A DNA stretch of 31,283 bases from a virus (lineage: Duplodnaviria > Heunggongvirae > Uroviricota > Caudoviricetes): IMG/VR virus record IMGVR_UViG_2579778786_000007, one strand, 5' to 3'. Of this stretch, positions 1 through 13,252 are shown one piece after another. Numbering within the stretch: the first letter of the stretch is position 1; each line of letters begins with the position of its first letter. A program made the translations under genes and the position numbers. The notes under the pieces were generated by a model. The model was not told the origin of the DNA. It searched no databases and saw only the letters and a program-made list of their open reading frames with translations.

Positions 1-1032
1 TCAAAAACTTGCTATTGATGTTGGTAGTGTTGCCAGCGGATTAAACCGTAATGCAGTTTCCAGGTGATCCGGTGCCAGATGTGCGTAACGCATAGTCATT
101 TTTATATCGTGATGCCCGAGAATTTTTTGTAAGGCCAGGATATTTCCACCCGACATCATGAAGTGCGCCGCAAACGTATGGCGCAGAACGTGTGTCAGTT
201 GACCGCGAGGGAGCACGATAGACGTTTTTTCCATCACGGATAAAAATTGAAAATAGCAGTCTGTAAAGAAATTGAACCCATCAAGCGCCATGATCTCTTC
301 GTAAAGCTCTTTACTGATAGGGATGCTTCTGTTTTTCTTCCCCTTCGTTCTTACAAAGGTAATTCGGTATTTGGTCACCTGTGAGCGGGTAAGATTTACG
401 GCTTCACGCCAACGTGCGCCTGTGCTTAAGCATATCTTAACTACCAGTGCCAGAATTGGGTCCTGACGTTTGCAATCAGCCAGCAATTCAACAATCTGCT
501 CATGGGTAAGCCATGCCATCTCTTTTTCTGCGATGGTGAATTTTCGCATGTTCTCCAGTGGGTTCGGATACGACCATTCGCCCAGGCGGGATAGTTCGCT
601 AAAAACACTACTTAGATAGCTTTGCTCCAGGTTAATGGTGACCGGGCTTGCTCCTTTCTTCCATTTCTCGCTGAAGTAGATCTCACCTGTCAGGCGTTTA
701 TCTCGATAGTGGGCAAACATTTTAGATGTGAGATCAGTTGCAAGGGGATTGCCCAGAGCGTCAACCATCAGCAGCAATTTGTCATAGACATGCTGCCCAG
801 CAGTCAGTGATTTACCATGTAGTTTGAACCATAGCTCAACCACGTCTTTCAGTGTTCGACGATCCACTGATTCACCCAGCCAGGGCTTTGCTTCGGTTTC
901 TTCCATCGTGTGACGCTCAAAAGCCAGTGCTTCGCCTTTGGTGGCGAATTGTTTACGCACACGACGCCCACTACGTCCGGCGGGGTAACATTCGCAAAGC
1001 CATTTTCCTGTGGTGAGTTTTCGTACAGCCAT
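1..1032 (-). CDS. int: P2-type tyrosine integrase (site-specific recombinase)
   Basis: Minus-strand ORF ending with TGA at 1-3. C-terminal half carries the tyrosine-recombinase signature (LSTGARWREA, HVLRHTFAAHFM, MRYAHL). Start chosen at ATG 1032, preceded by GGAGGG, giving 343 aa close to P2 Int (337 aa, from memory); the ORF track extends to 1188. Confidence 0.85.
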   Translation of the reverse strand: MAVRKLTTGKWLCECYPAGRSGRRVRKQFATKGEALAFERHTMEETEAKPWLGESVDRRTLKDVVELWFKLHGKSLTAGQHVYDKLLLMVDALGNPLATDLTSKMFAHYRDKRLTGEIYFSEKWKKGASPVTINLEQSYLSSVFSELSRLGEWSYPNPLENMRKFTIAEKEMAWLTHEQIVELLADCKRQDPILALVVKICLSTGARWREAVNLTRSQVTKYRITFVRTKGKKNRSIPISKELYEEIMALDGFNFFTDCYFQFLSVMEKTSIVLPRGQLTHVLRHTFAAHFMMSGGNILALQKILGHHDIKMTMRYAHLAPDHLETALRFNPLATLPTSIASF

Positions 1033-1051
1033 AAAAAATGCCCTCCAATAG

Positions 1052-1071
1052 AGAGCATTTTTACTGTATGT
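1052..1071. promoter_or_regulatory. LexA-box-like palindrome (taCTGtatgtataacCAGtg) about 20 bp upstream of the int start
   Basis: CTG-N10-CAG spacing matches the SOS box consensus TACTGTATATATATACAGTA at about 16 of 20 positions; closely resembles the stronger box at 7286-7305. Confidence 0.3.
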
Positions 1072-1220
1072 ATAACCAGTGTCAATGTATGAAATCCTGC
1101 GACCATACATCTCACTGAAGCCATAATGAAGTAGGCTATTCTTTTTGCTATGTGAGCATGTAACTTTTGCGGTTAACCTGTGGCTCATTTTTATTTTAGG
1201 CGCAGATATAAAAGCAAAAG

Positions 1221-1412
1221 TTATCGTGAGTTTTTAGTACAGATTTTTTTGGATTTACTAATAGTTCCATCATTGCAAACGAATTTGCCATCAGAGGTAC
1301 AGTGAGAAACACCTCCCTTTTTCCCTGAGCAGGGATAATTTCTAGCATAGGTAGCTAGTGGGTTTAATAACAAAGAACATGACAAAACCACAAAAAATAC
1401 CTTACCAAGCAT
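1221..1412 (-). CDS. Small exported basic Cys-containing protein (63 aa), unknown function; possible lysogenic-conversion moron between cI and int
   Basis: Strong RBS (GGGAGG) 6 nt before the ATG; N-terminal hydrophobic signal-peptide-like segment ([23 protein letters not shown]); mature part Lys-rich with 4 Cys; locally AT-rich. Confidence 0.5.
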
Positions 1413-1427
1413 AATTTCCTCCCGGTA

Positions 1428-2003
1428 CTATTTAACATACTTGACTGTTAAGCTTATAATTTTACCAATTATTTCAATGTCTTCTATCTTGCATTCGAAG
1501 GCTCTGTTTCCACCCTCGACGAAGATTCTTCCACCGGGTAAACGAGTAATGTCACGGATCGTTATTTCGCCATCAATACTTATTACCCATTTACCATCAC
1601 GTATATCATCAAATTCCTTATCACAAATAAATTCAGAATTATTATCTGTGATTACAAAAAGATTCTTGAATGCCGACGGTAGAAATTCTCTATCGAAAAT
1701 ATAAAAACCGTCTTCACACAAGGCCCCATCAGATAATACATATTTAGCAACTTCCATAGTATTTGTATTACCTGAAGTTTGCTTTGAACCATGCCCGGTT
1801 GTGAGCCAATTAAGCGAGGTGCCTGTTTCAAGGGCGCACTGGATTACCCATTCTGCTGGGAATGAGTCACGCATGTAGCGTGTGGCGAGTGTACTTTTAG
1901 AGATTCCTAAATGATCGCACAACGCCTGTCGAGTCTTGAATCCATAAGCTTCTACCATGCGCTCTATAGCGCCTCGTCCGCCTTTCTCCAAATTCATGGT
2001 CAC
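1428..2003 (-). CDS. cI: Immunity repressor CI, phage-186 type (HTH DNA-binding)
   Basis: 191-aa ORF divergent from the Apl/CII genes; size matches 186 CI (about 192 aa) rather than P2 C (99 aa); N-terminal HTH-like segment (LCDHLGISKSTLATRYMR). Start is GTG 2003 or ATG 1997. Confidence 0.7.
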   Translation of the reverse strand: MTMNLEKGGRGAIERMVEAYGFKTRQALCDHLGISKSTLATRYMRDSFPAEWVIQCALETGTSLNWLTTGHGSKQTSGNTNTMEVAKYVLSDGALCEDGFYIFDREFLPSAFKNLFVITDNNSEFICDKEFDDIRDGKWVISIDGEITIRDITRLPGGRIFVEGGNRAFECKIEDIEIIGKIISLTVKYVK

Positions 2004-3700: not shown

Positions 3701-3927
3701 TGGCTGATGCAATGGATCTCGTACAGCAGCGCGTTGAAGAAGAACGCCAGCGCCATATCCGTGCTGCCCGTGCCAAAACACCGGGCGTGTCTCGCGTGCT
3801 TTGTATTGAATGTGAAGCGCCAATTCCGCCAGCACGCCGCCGCGCCATTCCGGGTGTGCAGCTTTGCATTACCTGTCAGGAAATCGCAGAGCTGAAAGGC
3901 AAACATTACAACGGAGGTGTTGTATGA
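3700..3927 (+). CDS. TraR/DksA-family C4 zinc-finger protein
   Basis: 75 aa with CxxC...CxxC (CIECEAP...CITCQE), typical of phage TraR-like proteins. Confidence 0.7.
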   Translation: MADAMDLVQQRVEEERQRHIRAARAKTPGVSRVLCIECEAPIPPARRRAIPGVQLCITCQEIAELKGKHYNGGVV

Positions 3928-4781
3928 GCACCATCCTGAAATGGGCGGGAAATAAAACCGCCATTATGTCCGAACTGAAAAAACATCTTCCTGCTGGCCC
4001 GCGACTGGTTGAACCTTTCGCGGGGTCCTGTGCTGTGATGATGGAGACGGATTATCCCAGCTATCTGGTTGCGGATATTAATCCTGATTTAATCAACCTC
4101 TATAAAAAGGTTGCCGCTGATTGTGAATCGTTTATATCTCGCGCCAGAGTTTTATTTGAGATCGCAAACAGGGAGGTGGCTTATTACAACATAAGGCAGG
4201 AGTTTAATTACTCAACTGAAATTACTGATTTCATGAAAGCGGTATATTTCCTGTATCTCAATCGTCACGGTTACCGTGGTTTATGTCGCTATAACAAGAG
4301 CGGGCATTTCAACATTCCCTACGGTAATTATAAAAATCCGTATTTCCCTGAAAAAGAAATTCGCGCATTTGCAGAAAAGGCCCAGCGAGCAACGTTTATC
4401 TGCGCCAGCTTTGATGAAACGCTGGCGATGTTGAAGGCGGGAGATGTGGTGTATTGCGATCCGCCGTATGACGGTACGTTTTCCGGCTATCACACTGATG
4501 GTTTCACTGAAGATGACCAGTATCACCTGGCATCCGTTCTTGAACATCGGTCATCAGAAGGACATCCGGTCATTGTTTCTAACAGTGACACATCCCTGAT
4601 CCGTTCGCTGTATCGCAATTTTACTCACCACTATATCAAGGTAAAACGCAGCATCGGTGTGGCAGCTGGCGAGGGTAAATCAGCAACAGAAATCATTGCT
4701 GTTTCCGGGCCGCGCTGCTGGATGGGATTTGATTATTCGCGTGGCGTGGATAGTTCTGCCGTGTACGGAGTACGTGCATGA
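3924..4781 (+). CDS. dam: DNA N6-adenine methyltransferase (Dam-like)
   Basis: ATG 3924 with GGAGG 6 nt upstream, overlapping the TraR stop (ATGA); N-terminal ILKWAGNK AdoMet-binding motif and catalytic DPPY (CDPPYDGTF). Confidence 0.85.
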
Positions 4782-7192
4782 GTCATGCCGATATGAACAA
4801 CTGCTGCGGCTTTAACGAGGCTGCCGCAGCGTTCTCATGGAACAGCCCGAAAAAGGCCATTAACCCTTATCTGGACCCGGCGGAAGTTGCGCCGGTTTCT
4901 ACGCTTTCAAACCTGATCACTCTGTACGCTGCCGATAACGAGCAGGAACAGTTGCGCCGCGAGGCACTGAGTGATCAGGTCTGGGAGCGTTATTTCTTTA
5001 ATGAATCACGTGATCCTGTCCAGCGCGAAATGGAGCAGGATAAGCTCATTAGCCGGGCAAAGCTGGCGCATGAGCAGCAGCGTTTTAATTCAGACATGGT
5101 CATTCTGGCGGACGTCAACGCCCAGCCTTCCCATATCAGCAAGCCGCTGATGCAACGTATTGAATACTTCAGCAGCCTGGGCAGGCCAAAGGCTTATTCC
5201 CGCTATTTACGTGAGACGATTAAGCCATGTCTGGAACGACTGGAGCATGTACGCGACAGTCAGCTATCTGCATCTTTTCGCTTTATGGCAAGCCATGAAG
5301 GGCTGGACGGCCTGCTGATCCTGCCTGAAATGAGTCAGGATCAGGTGAAACGCCTGTCCACCTTGGTAGCTGCGCATATGAGTATGTGCCTTGATGCAGC
5401 TTGTGGTGATTTGTATGCCACCGATGACGTTAAGCCAGAAGAAATCCGCAAGACATGGGAAAAGGTGGCAGCGGAAACCCTGCGTCTGGATGTCATCCCG
5501 CCTGCGTTTGAGCAACTCCGTCGGAAAAGAAACCGCCGTAAACCCGTGCCCTATGAACTCATTCCGGGTTCGCTGGCGCGTATGCTGTGCGCCGACTGGT
5601 GGTATCGGAAATTGTGGAAGATGCGTTGCGAATGGCGGGAAGAGCAGTTGCGTGCTGTCTGCCTGGTCAGCAAAAAAGCATCTCCCTATGTCAGCTATGA
5701 AGCCGTGATGCATAAACGTGAGCAGCGCCGTAAGTCACTGGAGTTTTTCCGTTCTCATGAACTGGTGAACGAAGACGGAGACGCGCTGGATATGGAAGAT
5801 GTGGTAAACGCCAGCAGCAGCAACCCGGCGCATCGTCGCAATGAGATGATGGCCTGTGTTAAAGGTCTGGAGCTTATCGCGGAAATGCGCGGTGACTGCG
5901 CCGTTTTCTACACCATTACCTGTCCGTCACGTTTCCATTCCACGCTCAATAACGGCAGACCCAACCCGACATGGACAAATGCGACGGTAAGACAAAGCAG
6001 CGATTATCTGGTCGGTACGTTTGCTGCATTTCGTAAGGCGATGCACAAAGCCGGGTTGCGCTGGTATGGCGTGCGGGTGGCTGAGCCGCATCATGACGGC
6101 ACAGTTCACTGGCACCTGTTGTGTTTCATGCGCAAAAAAGACCGCCGCGCCATTACTGCATTGTTGCGTAAGTTTGCTATCCGTGAAGACCGTGAGGAGC
6201 TGGGCAATAACACGGGGCCGCGCTTTAAGTCTGAGCTGATTAACCCGCGAAAAGGAACGCCGACAAGCTACATCGCGAAATACATCAGTAAGAACATTGA
6301 TGGGCGTGGTCTGGCTGGCGAAATCAGCAAGGAAACGGGTAAATCCCTGCGTGATAACGCTGAATACGTTAATGCCTGGGCGTCTCTGCATCGTGTTCAG
6401 CAATTTCGCTTCTTTGGTATTCCGGGGCGTCAGGCGTACCGTGAATTGCGATTGCTGGCTGGTCAGGCGGCAAGGCAACAGGGTGACAAAAAAGCAGGTG
6501 CGCCGGTACTGGATAACCCGCGCCTTGATGCCATTCTGGCTGCTGCTGATGCTGGTTGTTTTGCCACCTACATTATGAAGCAGGGCGGCGTACTGGTTCC
6601 CCGCAAATATCACCTTATCAGAACAGCTTATGAAATTAACGAAGAGCCGACCGCCTATGGCGATCACGGTATTCGTATTTATGGCATCTGGTCACCCATT
6701 GCAGAGGGCAAGATTTGTACTCATGCAGTGAAGTGGAAAATGGTTCGTAAGGCCGTTGACGTTCAGGAGGCGGCAGCCGACCAGGGCGCTTGCGCCCCTT
6801 GGACTCGTGGCAATAACTGTCCCCTTGCTGAAAATTTGAACCAACAGGAGAAAGATAAATCAGCTGATGGGGACCCCAGAACGGACTTTACCCGCATGGA
6901 TGACAAGGAGTTGCACGATTACCTGCACAGTATGAACAAAAAGGAGCGCCGGGAACTGGCTGCAAGGTTACGTCTGGTGAAACCGAAACGGCGTAGAGAC
7001 TACAAACAGCGAATTACAGACCATCAACGACAGCAGCTCGTCTATGAACTGAAATCCAGAGGATTTGATGGCAGCGAGAAAGAGGTCGATTTACTCCTTC
7101 GCGGCGGCAGTATTCCGTCAGGAGCAGGCCTGCGTATCTTCTATCGGAACCAGCGTTTGCAGGAAGATGATAAGTGGCGGAACCTGTATTAA
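4778..7192 (+). CDS. A: Replication initiation protein A (rolling-circle replication endonuclease, P2 gpA family)
   Basis: 804-aa ORF, start overlapping the dam stop; size and position match gpA of P2/186. Confidence 0.85.
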
Positions 7193-7779: not shown

Positions 7780-7892
7780 TTTTGTCAATAGACGCTTGTT
7801 TTTACTAATCAAAAAGGGTTACATATGAGTGAGAGGCGATGTCAATCGGATATCGCCTTGTTTTTTGTCAAGAAAAGAATAATAGGCTAAAA

Positions 7893-8570
7893 ATGAAAAT
7901 TAATAATGTAGCGTTACCAATATCTCTTGCTGTAATCCTAACTGGTTGCGTGCCACATGCTTCTAACCGAAATATCACTGCTATTGAAGTGGTGAAGCCT
8001 GCTATTGGGCAAAGTGCTACCGCCTACATGGGCGATCCCATTATCACATCTGCTACTGGATTTAAAACGGACGTACTAGAACTTGGTGCGGCTAATGGTG
8101 CATTGTCTTCTATCGCTGCTGGTACATATTGCAGTGAGGGGAATGGAATTTACCGCAATTATCATAACCCTCAAGCTGTTGCGTTAAAAAATCTCTATGG
8201 GCAAATCGGTAACTATGTTGATTATGTTAGTTACGATGCTGCAAAAAATGAGATATCACCGCCAAATGGTACTTCTTATACTGCATCAGAAATTTCTATC
8301 AAACGTGTTCCTGATGGGCTGTGTCGAGTTAGTAACTCATTGGTTAAGACTATCGAATACAATGGAAATGCAGGCGGTGTAATGAAGTTCACCTATCGTG
8401 AATTTGCAAACGATATGGCTCGTGCAGCATTTACAACAGATTTTTCTGTAGATTCTAAGGGAAGTGACGTTATCGCTTACAAAGGTGCCAAGTTCAAAGT
8501 GAACAAGGCTGATAACTCGTCTATTTCTTATACAATTATTTCTGGCTTTGACAAGGCTGTCACGTTCTAG
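7893..8570 (+). CDS. Predicted outer-membrane lipoprotein, unknown function (cargo gene)
   Basis: Signal peptide with lipobox (AVILTG|C) and no Asp at +2; AT-rich relative to the phage backbone; no recognisable catalytic motif. Confidence 0.6.
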   Translation: MKINNVALPISLAVILTGCVPHASNRNITAIEVVKPAIGQSATAYMGDPIITSATGFKTDVLELGAANGALSSIAAGTYCSEGNGIYRNYHNPQAVALKNLYGQIGNYVDYVSYDAAKNEISPPNGTSYTASEISIKRVPDGLCRVSNSLVKTIEYNGNAGGVMKFTYREFANDMARAAFTTDFSVDSKGSDVIAYKGAKFKVNKADNSSISYTIISGFDKAVTF

Positions 8571-8829: not shown

Positions 8830-10584
8830 GTGGCCTCAGTGGAACTGCAAGCAAATGCTCGAACCTTAACAAACGTGTTATCTGTAAATAAAAAATATAT
8901 AGTCCCTAGATTCCAAAGAGAATATTCTTGGGGGAAGGAACAAGTAAGTGAACTTTGGCATGATATAGTTTCCAATATTCATTACCAGGAGGATGGGCAG
9001 TATCAATATGATGAGTATTTCATCGGTGCTCTCGTTTTGGTCGGGCAGGAAACTAGCTCTGAGCTGATGATTGTAGATGGTCAACAACGTCTTACGACTC
9101 TTACTATATTGTTATCAGCATTATGTGATAAATTTAAGTTGATAAATGAGTTGGCTGTAGCTCAATCAATATATAATAATTATATATCTGGTATGGATGA
9201 CGATGGCAGACCTTTTTTTAAATTAGTTAATGAAACTCCTAAGCCATACTTTCAAAACAACATTCAGCATATTGATAAGAGAAATGAAGGACCGGAGTCC
9301 CTTGAAGAAAGAAACTTGCAATCTTCATATAATGATTTAACTGAGTATCTTTCAGAAGATAATCTTTGCCAGACATTAGGAGTAGATAGAGAGAAATTTA
9401 TCTACTTGGAAGCGTTGAAGGCTGTGCGGGATCAAGTTCTACGGTATCTGAAAGTGATTTATATTACAGTTAATGATGAAGATGAAGCTTATACAATCTT
9501 TGAAACTCTGAATGCTAGGGGATTAAACTTAAGTTATGTAGATCTTATAAAAAACAAATTATTTAAGAAACTGAATGGCACACATCCTGATGATGATGCA
9601 AAAACTAAATGGAATAAAATTAGGCAAATAATTGCTAGTCGTAATGGTGTCGGTTCTATCGAAACATTTATCCGTCATTGGTGGGTGTCAAAATATTCTT
9701 ATGTAAGTAGTGACACTCTTTATAAAGCTTTTCTGGATAAGTGGAAAAAAGGCGACATTGATGCTTCAGCGTTCATTGATGAGCTACTTTCAGATGCCGA
9801 GATATATGTGAAAATATCATCGCCTACAGAACAGGATTTTCCTGAACTGGAAATGAAACCAGTTTATCGAGGTTTGCAGGCATTAAGGCTGTTTAACATA
9901 TCTCAGAATAAACCATTTTTGTTATCTTTATTTAAGGCAAGAGCAAGAGGAACGCTAAAACTTGTTGATATGAATAATGCAGTGCTGTCAATTGAACGCT
10001 TTCATTTTATGTTTAATGCTATTTGTTCATTGCGACCATCAGGTATTGAAAGTGCGTATGCTAAAGCTGCTAGGGCTTTAGTGGATGAAGGTTCTACTAA
10101 AGCTAGTAATAGACAAGTAATAAAGTCTTTGCTTGAAATGTTGGTGAAGAGAAAACCAGACATTAATATGTTTGTTGAAAAGTTTGTTATGCTTAAATTT
10201 TCAAATCAAGAGTTGAAAAATAAAAGGTTGATTCAGTACATTTTTAATAGACTTGAGTTACATCACATGAAAACGGGGGAGTATATGCCTGATTCATTAA
10301 CATTAGAGCATATTCAGCCTCAGAGTGTGGGGGATTCTGAAGTATATAGCATGATAGGAAATTTATTACCACTTTCAAAAGAATTAAATGAAAAAGCTGG
10401 AAATAAGTCTGTTGTGGATAAGCTTGAAATTTATAAACAATCACAATATGCGCTAGTTAAAATTTTTATTGATGAATTTGAAAATAAATATCAAGGAGAA
10501 TGGACGCCCGATCATATGAGGTCAAGAGCTGCTGAACTAAGTATTTTATCGTATAATTCAGTATGGAAATTGGGGCGTGAGTAA
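8830..10584 (+). CDS. DUF262/DUF1524 two-domain nuclease, GmrSD-like (candidate type IV restriction / anti-phage defence protein)
   Basis: 584 aa. N-terminal DUF262/ParB-like motifs (PRFQREYSW; DGQQR at 9076-9090; FETLNARG); C-terminal DUF1524/His-Me-finger-like motifs (TLEHIQPQ about 10306-10320; GNLLPLSKELNEKAGNKS). Strongly AT-rich; GTG start. Confidence 0.75.
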   Translation: MASVELQANARTLTNVLSVNKKYIVPRFQREYSWGKEQVSELWHDIVSNIHYQEDGQYQYDEYFIGALVLVGQETSSELMIVDGQQRLTTLTILLSALCDKFKLINELAVAQSIYNNYISGMDDDGRPFFKLVNETPKPYFQNNIQHIDKRNEGPESLEERNLQSSYNDLTEYLSEDNLCQTLGVDREKFIYLEALKAVRDQVLRYLKVIYITVNDEDEAYTIFETLNARGLNLSYVDLIKNKLFKKLNGTHPDDDAKTKWNKIRQIIASRNGVGSIETFIRHWWVSKYSYVSSDTLYKAFLDKWKKGDIDASAFIDELLSDAEIYVKISSPTEQDFPELEMKPVYRGLQALRLFNISQNKPFLLSLFKARARGTLKLVDMNNAVLSIERFHFMFNAICSLRPSGIESAYAKAARALVDEGSTKASNRQVIKSLLEMLVKRKPDINMFVEKFVMLKFSNQELKNKRLIQYIFNRLELHHMKTGEYMPDSLTLEHIQPQSVGDSEVYSMIGNLLPLSKELNEKAGNKSVVDKLEIYKQSQYALVKIFIDEFENKYQGEWTPDHMRSRAAELSILSYNSVWKLGRE

Positions 10585-10610: not shown

Positions 10611-11657
10611 TCAAAAAGAATCGTTTGTGAAATTTAGGGAGTAGGCATCAAAGCGTATTGCTTCTTCGCCTAGCCAATAGTTAAGTTCTTGTAGCTGTTT
10701 CTGCAGGGGCATCAGTTCGTTGCGGACAAAAACACGACTAGCCTTCTCCACATCACCAAAGCCCCCAACATTATTAGGCATTATCCCCATCATTTGCGGC
10801 GGCACACGGTGTGCCGCCATCATGTCGTCCCGGCTCACGTTCTTGATATTCAGAAACTCATCCTTCGCCGCGACTTCTGACAACGGGATAATCTGAAGCC
10901 CGTCCTTTTTGCCGTTAGGAGAGTACATAAACAGGTTGCGGAAGTTGCCTGGCCCTTTGGCACTTTTCATTGCATTGCGGAGGTTGTTCACATCCTCCTG
11001 GTTCTGCGCGGCATCGGTCATGTACATGATGAAGCCTGCATGACTGCCGTTAATATAATACTTCCGGCGGAACAGCGTGGCGGACTCGTTGAGCAGGGCT
11101 GATGGAATGGCAGAAAGATAACCTGGCAGGCCGTAGATCTCCTGGTTGATGTCCGGTTCCATCAGATGAAAAATGCTGCCTTTCGTGAACTGATACGGCT
11201 GGGTTGTCATACCGTATTGCACAAACCAGTAGGTATCCAGGTCTAACCCGCGTCGGGTGTATTTTGCCAGAGCAGGCTCAAGGGCGATAACTTCACCGAA
11301 GCGGTTCGTGCGTTTCTCCAGGTAGGCGTTACCAAATACCAGATAGTCCTGCACAAAACGTGAAAAAGCCTGCTGGCTGAGCAGCGGGTGAGGGATGTAG
11401 GTACTGGTCAGAATGTTGCATTTCACCGCAATTGGTGAGCTGTGATGCACGGCGGCGCGGAAGGTTCGTGCCAGTCCGTCAAAGCTGACGGGCGGCTCAT
11501 ACCAGCGGTCCATCTGTACGCATTCCACATAGTCCAGCAGTTCTCGGCGGTCCAGAACAGGAACGGGATCGCCGAAGCTGAATGCTTCGGCTGTAGTCTG
11601 GCTTTTAAGCTGGATCTGTTTCGTCGCCGCAGCGCGGTTCTTCTTACTCTTTCCCAT
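10611..11657 (-). CDS. Q: Portal protein (P2 gpQ family)
   Basis: About 348 aa, minus strand, start ATG overlapping the P stop (TGATG); size and position match P2 Q. Confidence 0.9.
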   Translation of the reverse strand: MGKSKKNRAAATKQIQLKSQTTAEAFSFGDPVPVLDRRELLDYVECVQMDRWYEPPVSFDGLARTFRAAVHHSSPIAVKCNILTSTYIPHPLLSQQAFSRFVQDYLVFGNAYLEKRTNRFGEVIALEPALAKYTRRGLDLDTYWFVQYGMTTQPYQFTKGSIFHLMEPDINQEIYGLPGYLSAIPSALLNESATLFRRKYYINGSHAGFIMYMTDAAQNQEDVNNLRNAMKSAKGPGNFRNLFMYSPNGKKDGLQIIPLSEVAAKDEFLNIKNVSRDDMMAAHRVPPQMMGIMPNNVGGFGDVEKASRVFVRNELMPLQKQLQELNYWLGEEAIRFDAYSLNFTNDSF

Positions 11658-13252
11658 CAAAAAATCTCCACAATATTGCTGGTATTGGCGGATTCGCCCT
11701 GCAGCGGTTCGTTAAACAATGCGTGCATCGTTGCCCAGGCCAGATCGGCGTGGCTGGCTTCTTCGCTGCGGCTGGCTTCATAGGTCGGGCGGTTGCCGCT
11801 GGCGGTGGTTGCGCGACGGATTGCCATGAATGACTGCGCAATGTCGGTGTGTCCGGCGTCAAACTCCAGACGGCGGTGGCTGATAATGTCGTAGGCCTTG
11901 AGTACCAGAGCGTTTTTAACGTTGGGGTTGTAGACAAACTCCCGGACGGCTGGAAAAAACGCTTTCACGTTCTCGTAAACCCCGTGGCCGACACCTGTCG
12001 AGTCGATGCCGATGTAGGTCACGTTGTACTGCTCGGTCAGTTTTTTGATGGCGTCAGCCTGGGCGCGGAAGTCCATCCCGCGCCACTGGTGACGCTCAAG
12101 AATGCGGAACTTACCACCCGGCACGGCTGGCGGTGCCACCACCACGCATCCGGCACTGTCGCCGTTCTGCGTACCTTTTGCCGGGTCATAACCGATCCAC
12201 ACTTCGCGCCAGCCAAACGGGCGCAGGGCCAGTGCATGAAAGTCGGTCCAGACTTCCCAACTGTCCACCATGCACGCTTGCAGCTCGCTGAGCGGGAACA
12301 CGGACGCGAGATCGTCCACAAACTCACACATCAGCAGGTTCTGGTATTCGTCCGGGCTGTACTCCATGCGCAACTGGTCGAGGTCGAACAGGTTACAGCC
12401 GCCCCGCACCGCATCTTCCACGGTGACTATCTGGCGGTACTGCCCGTCTGCGCACAGCAGGCCGGGGGACAGATTGCTGTGGGACAGGTCGATGTCCACC
12501 TTATCGGCTTTGTTGCGCCCTCGGTTGAACAGCGCACCGGACCAGAACGGATAAGCACTGTGTGTCAGACTGGATGGTGTGGAAAAATAGGTCTGTCGCC
12601 ATTTTTTGTGAATAGCCATACCGGAAGCCACTTTGCGCAGCTCCTGGAATTTCGGTATCCAGAAATATTCATCCAGATACAGGTTGCCGTGGTAACTCTG
12701 GGCCGTGCGGGCATTGGTGCCGAGGAAGTAAAGCGTGGCCCCGTTAGGAAGCACCATCGGATCACCTTTCAGCTCCACCTCGACTTCTTTGGCGAAATCG
12801 ATGATGTACTGCTTAAAGACGTGAGCCTGTGCCTTACTGGCAGAAAGGAAAATCTGGTTACGTCCGGTAAGCAGGGCGTCAATCAGGGCTTCACGGGCAA
12901 AATAGAAGGTCGCGCCGATCTGGCGTGACTTTAGCAGGTTGCGGATGCGGTTGGTTTTTCCGGCTTCCCACCAGTGGCGCTGGTAGTTGAACATGGAGGA
13001 ATGGAAAATTTCTTCCAGCTTCTCAATCTGTTCATCGGTGAAAACATTCTTTTCAGGCTGACGGCGCGGGCCTTTGTTGCGGTTGGCGACGTTAGGGTTT
13101 AAGTCGGCTTCGTTGCCGCCATTGTTAAACTTGCCGATCCGCGCGTGGCGCTCAGACTGGCGCGCCAGCAGGTCAATCTCTTTGAAATCTTTCCCTTCTT
13201 TGTGCTCCTTCATAATGAGCTGGCAGTAGCGTGCGGCGGTGGTGAGCTGCAT
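11657..13252 (-). CDS. P: Terminase ATPase (large) subunit, P2 gpP family - the 531 codons downstream of an in-frame TGA
   Basis: Long minus-strand ORF divergent from O, with conserved terminase blocks; P2 gpP is about 590 aa, so the N-terminus is missing from this ORF. Confidence 0.85.
   Translation of the reverse strand: MQLTTAARYCQLIMKEHKEGKDFKEIDLLARQSERHARIGKFNNGGNEADLNPNVANRNKGPRRQPEKNVFTDEQIEKLEEIFHSSMFNYQRHWWEAGKTNRIRNLLKSRQIGATFYFAREALIDALLTGRNQIFLSASKAQAHVFKQYIIDFAKEVEVELKGDPMVLPNGATLYFLGTNARTAQSYHGNLYLDEYFWIPKFQELRKVASGMAIHKKWRQTYFSTPSSLTHSAYPFWSGALFNRGRNKADKVDIDLSHSNLSPGLLCADGQYRQIVTVEDAVRGGCNLFDLDQLRMEYSPDEYQNLLMCEFVDDLASVFPLSELQACMVDSWEVWTDFHALALRPFGWREVWIGYDPAKGTQNGDSAGCVVVAPPAVPGGKFRILERHQWRGMDFRAQADAIKKLTEQYNVTYIGIDSTGVGHGVYENVKAFFPAVREFVYNPNVKNALVLKAYDIISHRRLEFDAGHTDIAQSFMAIRRATTASGNRPTYEASRSEEASHADLAWATMHALFNEPLQGESANTSNIVEIF

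What the first reader, a model, noticed from the sequence alone, without database searches (positions are those of the whole stretch)
1221..1412. Small exported Cys-containing protein encoded between cI and int
A 63-aa ORF with a strong RBS, a signal-peptide-like N-terminus and a Lys-rich mature region with four Cys sits on the lysogenic transcript between cI and int, so it would be expressed in the lysogen. P2 has no gene at this position as far as I recall, and the region is AT-rich. It could be a periplasmic or secreted conversion factor or toxin-like peptide.
Basis: partly seen in the sequence, partly recalled or inferred. Interest (0 to 1): 0.45.

Follow-up and report, generated by a model that had tools for sequence, protein, structure and literature searches.

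The report
Exported YdcA-family mini-protein beside prophage repressor
The 63-codon ORF is a real gene for a small exported, disulfide-bonded, lysine-rich protein of the uncharacterised YdcA family; it follows the cI repressor gene in many 186-like prophages, is far better conserved than cI, and has no known function.

Summary
Window 1221-1412 (-) encodes a 63-aa protein, 15 nt after the cI stop, behind a GGGAGGA ribosome-binding site. It has a Sec-type signal peptide (cleavage TYA|RN inferred) and a 40-aa basic mature part with four Cys. It is already annotated as a "YdcA family protein" (NCBIfam NF007463, Pfam PF27300, PHROG 6000; function unknown).

New context:
- Phage 186 has nothing between cI and int. 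The cI-ydcA-(cargo)-int order recurs in 186-like prophages of E. coli, Klebsiella, Hafnia, Yersinia and Enterobacter. It is also present, unannotated, in Haemophilus phage HP2.
- The mature core is under very strong purifying selection (pN 0.02-0.06 with pS near saturation). Neighbouring cI falls to 32-70% identity.
- Family members are accessory genes in several other temperate phage types.
- The domain is also found fused to three unrelated secreted nuclease families and to a T6SS VasL domain.
- Its only structural neighbour is Legionella Dot/Icm Dis2, which the literature calls Legionella-specific.

Best reading: a periplasmic lysogenic-conversion protein made with cI that binds a conserved polyanionic envelope-space ligand, DNA being the first guess. 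The phenotype is inferred only. A toxin or a lipoprotein is unlikely.

The parts
1221..1412 (-). ydcA-family CDS (63 codons plus TAA stop at 1221-1223)
   Evidence: ORF list. NCBIfam NF007463 at 114.6 bits, above the cut-off of 93. PHROG 6000 at 3e-34. The identical protein P0001 carries Pfam PF27300 'YdcA'. Purifying selection.
1344..1412 (-). Signal-peptide coding part (residues 1-23, [23 protein letters not shown]); cleavage after Ala23 is inferred
   Evidence: Ala23 is invariant in a 28-sequence alignment. Of 191 family proteins, 188 have a small-x-small motif within 7 residues upstream of the 'PC' motif (in 174 of them 2-3 residues upstream), 188 have a hydrophobic stretch and 175 have K/R in the first 10 residues. 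The signal peptide is only 17-33% identical between prophage variants while the mature part is 88-97% identical. No dedicated predictor was available.
1224..1343 (-). Mature peptide coding part: 40 aa, [40 protein letters not shown], 4 Cys, pI 9.7
   Evidence: Family motif PCSGxKGG..C..FxCxDGxxSxSKKxC. AF2 model with core pLDDT 83-90 and a beta-hairpin. pN 0.02-0.06 against pS 0.8-0.95.
1417..1423 (-). Shine-Dalgarno GGGAGGA, 4 nt before the ATG and 4 nt after the cI stop
   Evidence: Read from the sequence. Conserved in E. coli variants.
1428..2003 (-). cI repressor (186 type); RefSeq starts it at the ATG at 1997
   Evidence: Pfam Phage_CI_repr 2.8e-33 and Phage_CI_C 2.7e-27. RefSeq annotation.
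1122..1228 (-). Empty cargo slot between ydcA and the int module
   Evidence: blastn homology to sister prophages runs from cI through ydcA and stops at about 1229. It resumes at about 1121. In the sister prophages a KAP NTPase (PADLOC PDC-S20, 1e-171) fills the gap.
1034..1062 (-). 13-bp hairpin followed by a U-run. It contains the int Shine-Dalgarno (GGAGGG) and ends 1 nt before the int ATG. Possible terminator or translational block for read-through from cI-ydcA
   Evidence: RNA fold -19.4 kcal/mol, z = -5.06. Whole spacer z = -4.3. Function not tested.
1057..1085 (-). Sigma-70-like promoter match (TTGACA-17-AAAAAT) upstream of int
   Evidence: Consensus scan, 10 of 12 matches. The number of such sites in the region is what chance gives.
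1..1032 (-). Integrase, cut by the window edge
   Evidence: Pfam Int_N 3e-32 and Phage_integrase 6.8e-22. RefSeq annotation.

Best explanation
The ORF is a genuine accessory gene of the prophage's immunity module.

Shown or strongly supported:
- It encodes a pre-protein of the YdcA family.
- Its position (15 nt after cI, strong ribosome-binding site, no terminator between) means it should be translated from the same lysogenic mRNA as the repressor, so it should be made continuously in the lysogen.
- It carries a Sec-type signal peptide.
- The mature 40-aa peptide (4.3 kDa, pI 9.7) is a disulfide-stabilised beta-hairpin mini-domain. Its sequence is held almost constant while cI and the signal peptide diverge freely.

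Inferred:
- The pre-protein is cleaved after Ala23 and released into the periplasm, and the four Cys form two disulfides.
- So strongly conserved a core must recognise something invariant rather than a co-evolving phage protein.
- The same domain is placed between the signal peptide and the catalytic domain of three unrelated secreted nuclease families. It often carries extra lysine-rich tails and has a glycine/lysine-rich invariant loop (PCSGxKGG). I therefore take it to be a small binding module for a polyanionic ligand of the envelope space, nucleic acid being the first choice.
- As a free periplasmic protein in the lysogen it would act at the envelope, most likely by interfering with DNA coming in from outside (superinfecting phage, conjugation or transformation). 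That would make it a lysogenic-conversion or exclusion function.

Confidence by step: about 0.9 for 'real, exported, cI-linked YdcA-family protein made in the lysogen'; about 0.35 for polyanion/DNA binding; about 0.25-0.3 for a DNA-entry or exclusion phenotype.
For: Gene and family.

Operon position: and the 186 reference map.

Conserved cI-ydcA-(cargo)-int order:
- E. coli (two variants), Klebsiella, Hafnia, Yersinia and Enterobacter prophages.
- Haemophilus HP2, where the ATG overlaps the cI stop and the ORF is unannotated.
- Homology to sister prophages covers cI plus ydcA and breaks only after ydcA.

Selection: core pS 0.8-0.95 and pN 0.02-0.06; core identity 88-97% against cI 32-70% and signal peptide 17-33%.

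Export signal across the family.

Fold: AF2 pLDDT 79 overall and 83-90 in the core.

Fusions and neighbours:
- Fusions to Endonuclease_NS (3-4 proteins), SNase (2) and PLDc_2 (1) among 31 long members.
- A GIY-YIG nuclease next to a family member in a T6SS cluster.
- A family member on a 3.9-kb MOBQ mobilisable plasmid next to TraD.
- Lys-rich tails, with a PBCV_basic_adap hit.

Recurrent accessory-gene positions in lambdoid, P2-like, Moraxella and Acinetobacter prophages.
Against: - No experiment on any family member shows DNA binding, exclusion or even localisation.
- K-12 YdcA is only 'predicted periplasmic'.
- There is no PADLOC hit.
- The domain also occurs in Dis2, a structural protein of the Dot/Icm outer-membrane cap that contacts lipoproteins rather than DNA. 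It also occurs fused to a T6SS VasL domain. Both fit an envelope-docking role at least as well.
- Non-prophage chromosomal copies exist: K-12 ydcA, and P0050 next to housekeeping genes. The function is therefore not phage-specific.
- Injected phage DNA is normally shielded in the periplasm.
- The C-terminal Lys pair is not invariant.
- Nuclease fusions are 6-7 of the 150 representatives I could inspect. This is a hint, not a rule.
Confidence: 0.4

Rival explanations
1. Envelope-docking adaptor. [quoted passage not shown] In fusions it tethers nucleases and secretion-system parts to the envelope. As a free prophage protein it occupies or remodels such a site, for example blocking an envelope-spanning machine or a phage entry step.
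For: - The only structural neighbour is Dis2 (Foldseek prob 0.97, 39% identity, next hit prob below 0.1). Sequence support: phmmer 3e-5 and hhalign 85%. A Dis2-like protein carries PF27300.
- Dis2 sits next to the outer membrane and contacts the lipoproteins DotC, DotD and DotK (PMC8486379 and PMC12716638).
- A VasL fusion and a T6SS cluster member exist.
Against: - The Dis2 lobes lack the Lys-rich character.
- The Dis2 link is weak with a domain-only profile (E 0.03, the same level as LDL-receptor repeats).
- It does not explain why three different nuclease families, rather than other periplasmic enzymes, dominate the recognisable fusions.
Confidence: 0.25
2. Host-fitness factor. The prophage copy simply adds a dose of the same (unknown) physiological activity as chromosomal YdcA, for example tolerance to acid or organic-acid or envelope stress, making lysogens fitter without any role in phage exclusion.
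For: - It is 57% identical to K-12 YdcA.
- A ydcA deletion makes E. coli W sensitive to 3-hydroxypropionate, and ydcA is reported as acid-induced under YdcI (PMC7642389).
- Chromosomal, non-prophage copies exist.
Against: - The one phenotype is weak and unexplained.
- The score against the K-12 equivalog model is below its cut-off (68.5 against 118), so this is a paralogue.
- Tight, ancient linkage to cI in many prophages, and accessory-gene positions in four other phage types, point to a phage-relevant benefit.
Confidence: 0.15
3. Partner of a neighbouring defence gene. ydcA is the sensor or accessory subunit of the cargo that follows it in sister prophages (KAP NTPase, PADLOC PDC-S20). Here it would be a leftover after loss of that cargo.
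For: The order cI-ydcA-KAP NTPase-int occurs in E. coli and Klebsiella prophages. The KAP protein matches PDC-S20 at 1e-171.
Against: - PDC-S20 is catalogued as a single-gene candidate.
- ydcA occurs without it here, in about 590 E. coli genomes, and in Yersinia, Enterobacter, Hafnia (different cargo) and HP2.
- It is still under strong purifying selection without it.
- One protein is periplasmic and the other has no signal peptide annotation.
Confidence: 0.05
4. Secreted toxin, bacteriocin or antimicrobial-peptide-like product.
For: It is small, cationic, disulfide-rich and has a signal peptide. There are weak, non-significant similarities to Cys-rich plant proteinase inhibitors (E 0.2-1.8).
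Against: - There is no immunity gene and no dedicated exporter.
- Sec export ends in the producer's own periplasm.
- The domain is a module of larger proteins and is tandemly repeated.
- It is a stably kept chromosomal gene in K-12.
- The proteinase-inhibitor hits misalign one Cys and are at chance level.
Confidence: 0.05
5. Outer-membrane lipoprotein of the Cor/Llp type, using Cys12 in 'VVLSC' as the lipidated residue, that blocks a phage receptor.
For: 'VLSC' fits the loose PROSITE lipobox pattern (my own reading of the sequence). One UniRef entry in the family is called 'Lipoprotein'.
Against: - Cys12 lies too close to the N-terminus and the hydrophobic run continues after it.
- It is not conserved. 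Variants have ICL, VCA or no Cys at all in the signal peptide.
- The invariant Ala-X cleavage context lies 11 residues further on.
Confidence: 0.03

Closest known systems
YdcA family (E. coli K-12 YdcA b1419; NCBIfam PRK10040 models NF007462/NF007463; Pfam PF27300; PHROG 6000)
   Same: It has the same architecture: a signal peptide followed by one about 31-aa four-Cys motif, PCSGxKGG(I/V)xxC..FxCxDGxxSxSKKxC. It is 57% identical to K-12 YdcA. It scores above the cut-off for NF007463.
   Different: It is a prophage-borne paralogue, below the cut-off of the K-12 equivalog model NF007462. It is embedded in the lysogenic operon next to cI rather than at the cybB-rydC-hokB locus. The family has no established function.
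[quoted passage not shown]
   Same: It is the only solved structure that resembles the model. It shares the motif C-S-x-x-GG-(I/V)-x-x-C ... (V/L)-C-N-(D/N)-G-x-x-S. It is disulfide-pinned, exported and located in the periplasm near the outer membrane. A Dis2-like protein carries the same precomputed Pfam family.
   Different: Dis2 has two lobes with five disulfides, is not Lys-rich, and is a stoichiometric (13-copy) part of a secretion machine. The window has one lobe and no secretion-system genes. Statistical support is moderate: E 3e-5 with the full length, 0.03 with the domain-only profile, and hhalign probability 85%. The literature calls Dis2 Legionella-specific.
Prophage superinfection-exclusion and conversion proteins acting in the envelope (P1 Sim, T4 Imm/Sp, phi80/N15 Cor, T5 Llp, TP-J34 Ltp). 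This comparison is from my own knowledge and was not tested here.
   Same: These are small exported or membrane proteins, expressed from the prophage, dispensable for lytic growth, and often sited in accessory-gene slots.
   Different: There is no sequence or fold similarity to any of them and no PADLOC match. This protein is not a lipoprotein. It is far more conserved across hosts than typical exclusion proteins. No exclusion phenotype is known.
Cargo/defence hotspots of P2-like prophages (Rousset et al. 2022, PMC9122126; 2026 NAR study, PMC13586616)
   Same: The integrase-to-primase interval is listed as a minor defence hotspot of P2-like prophages. Sister prophages carry a PDC-S20 KAP NTPase exactly between ydcA and int.
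   Different: ydcA itself is on the conserved, cI-linked side of the breakpoint. It is not mentioned in that paper (0 occurrences).

Membership tests
YdcA family (NCBIfam NF007463 / Pfam PF27300) | Profile match above the curated cut-off | tested here: met
   NF007463 scores 114.6 bits against a cut-off of 93, E 1.3e-33. The identical protein P0001 carries precomputed PF27300, named 'YdcA'. The local Pfam copy lacks this model.
YdcA family (NCBIfam NF007463 / Pfam PF27300) | Four conserved Cys and the PCSGxKGG...FxCxDGxxSxS motif | tested here: met
   Invariant P27, C28, S29, G33, G34, C38, F44, C46, D48, G49, S52, S54, K55 and C58 in 28 sequences. The same core appears in 65- and 136-sequence alignments.
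YdcA family (NCBIfam NF007463 / Pfam PF27300) | N-terminal Sec signal peptide directly before the domain | tested here: met
   Comparative test: 188 of 191 have a hydrophobic stretch, 188 of 191 have small-x-small before the domain, and Ala at -1 is invariant in the close set. No SignalP/LipoP run was possible.
Orthologue of E. coli K-12 YdcA (NCBIfam equivalog NF007462) | Score above the equivalog cut-off and the same chromosomal locus | tested here: not met
   68.5 bits against a cut-off of 118. K-12 ydcA lies between rydC and hokB; this gene lies in a prophage between cI and int.
Dis2 (Lpg0823)-type T4BSS outer-membrane-cap component | Significant sequence or fold similarity to the Dis2 lobes | tested here: inconclusive
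   phmmer E 3e-5 with the full length. Profile including the signal peptide 1.4e-4. Domain-only profile 0.029, level with LDLR-A repeats. hhalign probability 85%. Foldseek top hit at prob 0.75 and then 0.97 but E 0.07-0.3.
Dis2 (Lpg0823)-type T4BSS outer-membrane-cap component | Two tandem lobes and association with Dot/Icm genes | tested here: not met
   There is a single domain. The window is a 186-like prophage with no secretion-system genes.
Bacterial lipoprotein (Cor/Llp-type exclusion proteins) | Conserved lipobox Cys at the end of the signal peptide | tested here: not met
   Cys12 is not conserved among variants and the hydrophobic core continues after it.
Known or candidate anti-phage defence systems (PADLOC-DB 2.0) | Match to a defence-protein model | tested here: not met
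   No family at E <= 0.01 for this protein or for the P0013-type variant.
Prophage accessory ('moron') / lysogenic-conversion gene | Absent from the reference phage, deviant composition, placed so as to be expressed from the prophage | tested here: met
   Absent in 186. 35% GC. In the cI operon here. On the opposite strand after Q in lambdoid prophages, and in tail or terminal accessory-gene slots elsewhere. Expression itself was not measured.
Prophage accessory ('moron') / lysogenic-conversion gene | A phenotype conferred on the lysogen | not testable with these tools
   It needs deletion or expression experiments.

The most novel reading that the evidence does not exclude
The YdcA domain is a previously unrecognised minimal, disulfide-locked, periplasmic binding module for nucleic acid (or another phosphate-rich polyanion). 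Secreted nucleases, T4SS and T6SS parts reuse it. 186-like, HP1-like, lambdoid and Moraxellaceae prophages express it constitutively, in 186-like phages as a fixed partner of the cI repressor. It would act as a second, envelope-level layer of immunity that hinders foreign DNA from crossing the periplasm.
Probability: 0.2. Interest if true: 0.7.

Novelty: new member of a known kind. Interest (0 to 1): 0.45.

Why it matters
The gene itself is catalogued, so finding it is not new. Three things give it value.

1. A 40-residue exported peptide is kept almost invariant next to a fast-evolving repressor in prophages from E. coli to Yersinia. It sits in the same place in a Haemophilus phage, and about one complete E. 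coli genome in nine carries it. The lysogenic operon of 186-like phages therefore appears to carry an envelope function as well, alongside the repressor and integrase genes already known there.

2. The fusions to three nuclease families give a concrete, cheap biochemical hypothesis for a family (including E. coli K-12 YdcA) that has had none.

3. The link to Dis2 contradicts the published view that Dis2 is Legionella-specific. It also offers a solved structure for the fold.

If an exclusion or DNA-entry phenotype were found, it would add a very small, widespread class to prophage-encoded defences.

Tried and rejected
- megablast of the region against sequenced phages found no match. The close relatives exist only as prophages.
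- Pfam-A (local copy) gave only a chance hit, GULLO2-like, E 0.076.
- PADLOC gave nothing for YdcA, for the CFT073 cargo or for HP2 orf1.
- Rfam gave nothing for 900-2200 at E <= 1.
- Foldseek against BFVD gave nothing significant.
- The PDB sequence hits to plant Pin-II proteinase inhibitors, LDL-receptor class A repeats and lysozyme were judged to be Cys-pattern noise. Their E-values are 0.01-2, they cover only part of the domain, and one Cys is misaligned.
- Bridging the Dis2 link through two-domain family members failed to raise significance: P0081 gave E 0.037 and P0082 gave nothing.
- A search with a reconstructed Dis2 fragment returned only two truncated homologues.
- A domain-only alignment was too short for the large protein search.
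- The wider search (848 clusters) listed almost only short single-domain proteins and added no new architectures.
- The lipoprotein, toxin, KAP-NTPase-partner and chance-ORF readings were considered and rejected (see rivals).
- The Moraxella prophage paper on 'hyperconserved' genes concerns integrase, terminase and portal, not this gene.
- Papers that use the name 'ydcA' for Bacillus rhomboid, gonococcal island or F-plasmid genes were not followed. I assume these are name coincidences and did not check.
- The UniRef label 'Conjugal transfer protein' has no support beyond adjacency to TraD on small MOBQ plasmids.

Full report
**1. The observation**

Window 1221-1412 (- strand) holds an ATG-started ORF of 63 codons: [63 protein letters not shown].

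Read directly from the sequence:
- cI ends with TAG at 1430-1428.
- After TACC comes GGGAGGA (1423-1417), then AATT, then the ATG (1412-1410).

The pattern scan finds no terminator-like site on the - strand between cI and the ORF. GC content is 35-38% across about 1000-1800, against 45-52% in int and about 50% further right. Every descriptive element of the finding is therefore correct.

**2. The surrounding element**

The neighbours are as follows.
- An integrase, cut by the window edge (1-1032).
- A 186-type CI repressor (Phage_CI_repr plus Phage_CI_C).
- A Cox/Apl-like protein and a CII (Phage_CP76) on the other strand.

The segment is 100% identical to a prophage of E. coli HS integrated next to rcdA. 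The element is 186-like rather than P2-like in its control region. In the annotated genome of phage 186 the cI stop and the int start share a base, and nothing lies between them. The ORF here occupies extra DNA of 395 nt (1033-1427).

**3. It is a real gene of a catalogued family**

- The protein scores 114.6 bits on NCBIfam NF007463 (PRK10040.1-2; cut-off 93). It scores 68.5 bits on NF007462, the 57-residue model of this family, taken here to be the K-12 YdcA equivalog; this is below that model's cut-off of 118.
- It matches PHROG 6000 (function unknown) at 3e-34.
- The identical protein is in the large protein collection with precomputed Pfam PF27300, named 'YdcA'. Newer RefSeq records call it 'YdcA family protein'.
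- It is 57% identical to E. coli K-12 YdcA (b1419).
- About 590 of 5,426 complete E. coli genomes carry the whole 395-nt segment at 92-100% identity.

**4. Export**

No dedicated predictor was available, so I used comparison.
- In 28 homologues the N-terminal 20-25 residues vary freely but keep a charged start and a hydrophobic core. An invariant Ala lies just before the conserved (K/R/A)-N-Y-P-C start of the mature part.
- Among 191 family proteins with an N-terminal domain, 188 have a hydrophobic 8-mer, 175 have K/R in the first ten residues, and 188 have a small-x-small motif within 7 residues upstream of 'PC' (in 174 of them 2-3 residues upstream).
- Cleavage after Ala23 would give a 40-aa peptide of 4.29 kDa, pI 9.7, with 9 basic and 2 acidic residues and four Cys.
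- Cys12 in the signal peptide fits a loose lipobox. It is not conserved and is followed by more hydrophobic residues, so a lipoprotein is unlikely.

**5. Selection**

Among E. coli copies that differ by up to 7% in DNA, all substitutions in the conserved 34-codon core are synonymous. The three amino-acid changes lie in the signal peptide (N17S, A20T) or at the inferred first mature residue (R24K).

Across prophages of different genera I computed Nei-Gojobori values for the 34-codon core.

| Region | Measure | Value |
|---|---|---|
| Mature core | pS | 0.8-0.95 (saturated) |
| Mature core | pN | 0.02-0.06 |
| Mature core | amino-acid identity | 88-97% |
| Signal peptide | amino-acid identity | 17-33% |
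| Adjacent CI repressor | amino-acid identity | 32-70% |

The mature peptide is thus much more constrained than the repressor next to it. This argues for a conserved target rather than a co-evolving one.

**6. Conserved position**

For five further variants I fetched the encoding contigs: E. coli P0013, Klebsiella P0028, Hafnia P0024, Yersinia P0036 and Enterobacter P0019.
- In every case the gene is the first gene after cI and lies before int in a 186-like prophage.
- Three arrangements occur: ydcA directly followed by int; ydcA-KAP NTPase-int; and ydcA-unknown 347-aa protein-int.
- The KAP NTPase matches the PADLOC candidate single-gene system PDC-S20 at 1e-171.
- blastn shows that homology between the window and the KAP-carrying prophages runs from cI through ydcA and stops at about 1229. 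It resumes at about 1121. The variable cargo slot (empty here, 1122-1228) therefore lies between ydcA and int, and ydcA belongs to the cI side.
- A prophage at the same attachment site in CFT073 has a different, longer cI and a 323-aa cargo instead.
- In Haemophilus phages HP2 and S2 an unannotated 60-codon homologue starts on the last base of cI (ATGA overlap). It precedes orf1(S) and int.

**7. The family elsewhere**

A full HMM scan found 466 clusters (at 50% identity) at E <= 1e-3. The word-indexed search found 848 clusters at 90% identity. Most members are 54-110 aa.

Family members sit in classic accessory-gene positions of other temperate phages:
- between the tail chaperone or tube gene and the tape-measure gene in Moraxella and Acinetobacter siphophages;
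- on the opposite strand between antiterminator Q and the antirepressor/lysis genes of a lambdoid prophage;
- beside ogr at the end of a Proteus P2-like prophage.

Others are chromosomal and outside prophages. Others lie on plasmids, including a 3.9-kb MOBQ plasmid next to TraD and a T6SS cluster next to a GIY-YIG nuclease.

**8. Domain fusions**

Among 31 longer representatives, the domain always directly follows the signal peptide. It is fused to Endonuclease_NS (3, plus one fragment), SNase (2), PLDc_2 (1) and VasL (1). Tandem double and triple repeats also exist. Three unrelated secreted-nuclease folds sharing this N-terminal module is the main functional clue.

**9. Structure**

- AlphaFold2 with 113 homologues gives mean pLDDT 79 (core 83-90). 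The model has a signal-peptide helix and a short beta-hairpin.
- Against the PDB the only meaningful neighbour is chain AN of 7MUC/7MUD: probability 0.97, 39% identity over 38 columns, E 0.07. The next hits have probability below 0.1 (an earlier model gave 0.75).
- That chain is Dis2 (Lpg0823) of the Legionella Dot/Icm system. It has two similar lobes pinned by five disulfides, sits next to the outer membrane, is present in 13 copies and contacts DotC, DotD and DotK (PMC8486379, PMC12716638).
- Sequence support is moderate: phmmer E 3e-5 with the full-length query; 1.4e-4 with a profile that includes signal peptides; only 0.029 with a domain-only profile, the same level as LDL-receptor repeats; hhalign probability 85% against a Dis2-like protein. 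That Dis2-like protein carries PF27300 in the precomputed table.
- I regard homology as probable but not proven. The literature describes Dis2 as Legionella-specific.

**10. How it most likely works**

Shown:
- It is a selected protein-coding gene.
- It is a member of the YdcA family.
- Its position is fixed after cI.
- It has the features of a Sec signal peptide.

Inferred:
- It is co-transcribed with cI from the lysogenic promoters, by analogy with 186 where pL and pE drive cI-int.
- It is cleaved at Ala23, forms two disulfides and is located in the periplasm.

Hypothesis: the domain binds a conserved polyanion. DNA is favoured by the nuclease fusions, the Lys-rich tails and the links to DNA-transfer elements. 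An envelope component is favoured by Dis2 and VasL. The free protein in the lysogen would then act on the envelope, most plausibly against incoming DNA.

No family member has a demonstrated function. The published data are a 3-hydroxypropionate-sensitive ydcA deletion in E. coli W and the statement that YdcA is a predicted periplasmic protein. Later papers still call it poorly characterised.

**11. Novelty and score**

The gene is annotated and the family is named, so this is a new member of a known but uncharacterised kind.

The added findings are the cI-ydcA synteny across genera, the extreme conservation relative to cI, the nuclease fusions and the Dis2 link. I did not find these described in the library searched.

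Interest is moderate, 0.45. It is a good, cheap experimental lead with an open mechanism, not a surprise in kind.

Noticed in passing
window 1034-1062 (- strand), just upstream of the int ATG at 1032: A 13-bp hairpin (AAAAAUGCUCUCU/GGAGGGCAUUUUU) is followed by a U-run. It scores -19.4 kcal/mol with z = -5.06. It sequesters the int Shine-Dalgarno and looks like an intrinsic terminator. A sigma-70-like promoter match (1085..1057) has its -10 element inside the 5' arm, so transcripts started there could not form the hairpin. This may uncouple int from the cI-ydcA transcript.
   Followed up: partly
L001 2944-3126 (Haemophilus phage HP2, NC_003315.1 about 2486-2668, complement): An unannotated 60-codon YdcA-family ORF has its ATG overlapping the cI stop. 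The next gene, orf1(S), is an exported protein with a tRNA_anti-like OB-fold (Pfam 2.8e-13).
   Followed up: partly
window 1122-1228; L013 5198-6529; L024 4198-5529: The window has an empty cargo slot between ydcA and int. Sister prophages in E. coli and Klebsiella carry a 443-aa KAP NTPase there, matching the PADLOC candidate defence system PDC-S20 (1e-171) and, more distantly, PifA. Hafnia carries an unknown 347-aa protein there.
   Followed up: partly
window 1244-1250 (A7 on the coding strand, codons Lys55-Lys56): There is a homopolymer run inside ydcA. The copy in E. coli NCTC9966 (L009) has A6, which shifts the frame and removes the fourth Cys. This may be a sequencing error or a real inactivating or phase-type variant.
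   Followed up: no
window 8830-10584 (+) and 7839-8570 (+): The interval between replication gene A (4778-7192) and the portal gene (10611-11660) is the main known defence hotspot of P2-like phages. It holds a 584-aa GmrSD-type (type IV restriction-like) protein (Pfam GmrSD_N 1e-38; PADLOC HEC-06 3.8e-90) and an unknown 243-aa ORF with no Pfam or PADLOC match.
   Followed up: partly
window 3924-4781 (+): A Dam-like D12-class adenine methyltransferase (Pfam 2.7e-76) lies in the early operon, just before the replication gene.
   Followed up: no
L012 2587-4497 (E. coli CFT073 prophage at the same rcdA site): It has the same integrase module but a 308-aa CI with two Phage_CI_repr stretches and a 323-aa unknown cargo (weak DUF2207_C hit) in place of ydcA. 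The cI-int junction is therefore a site of module exchange.
   Followed up: no
L023 4926-5327 (Citrobacter plasmid NZ_CP053574.1) and protein P0119: A subfamily (RxPCSGxKGGIxHCTSDGRFVCNDGxLSQSKRFCSG) is linked to type VI secretion. One member sits between tssE and a GIY-YIG nuclease gene, and another is fused to a VasL C-terminal domain (4e-18).
   Followed up: partly
L021 728-904 (Acinetobacter pittii 3.9-kb MOBQ plasmid pApiMCR53a): A YdcA-family gene is one of only five genes on a tiny mobilisable plasmid, directly after a TraD-like gene. This may be the source of the 'Conjugal transfer protein' label in UniRef.
   Followed up: no
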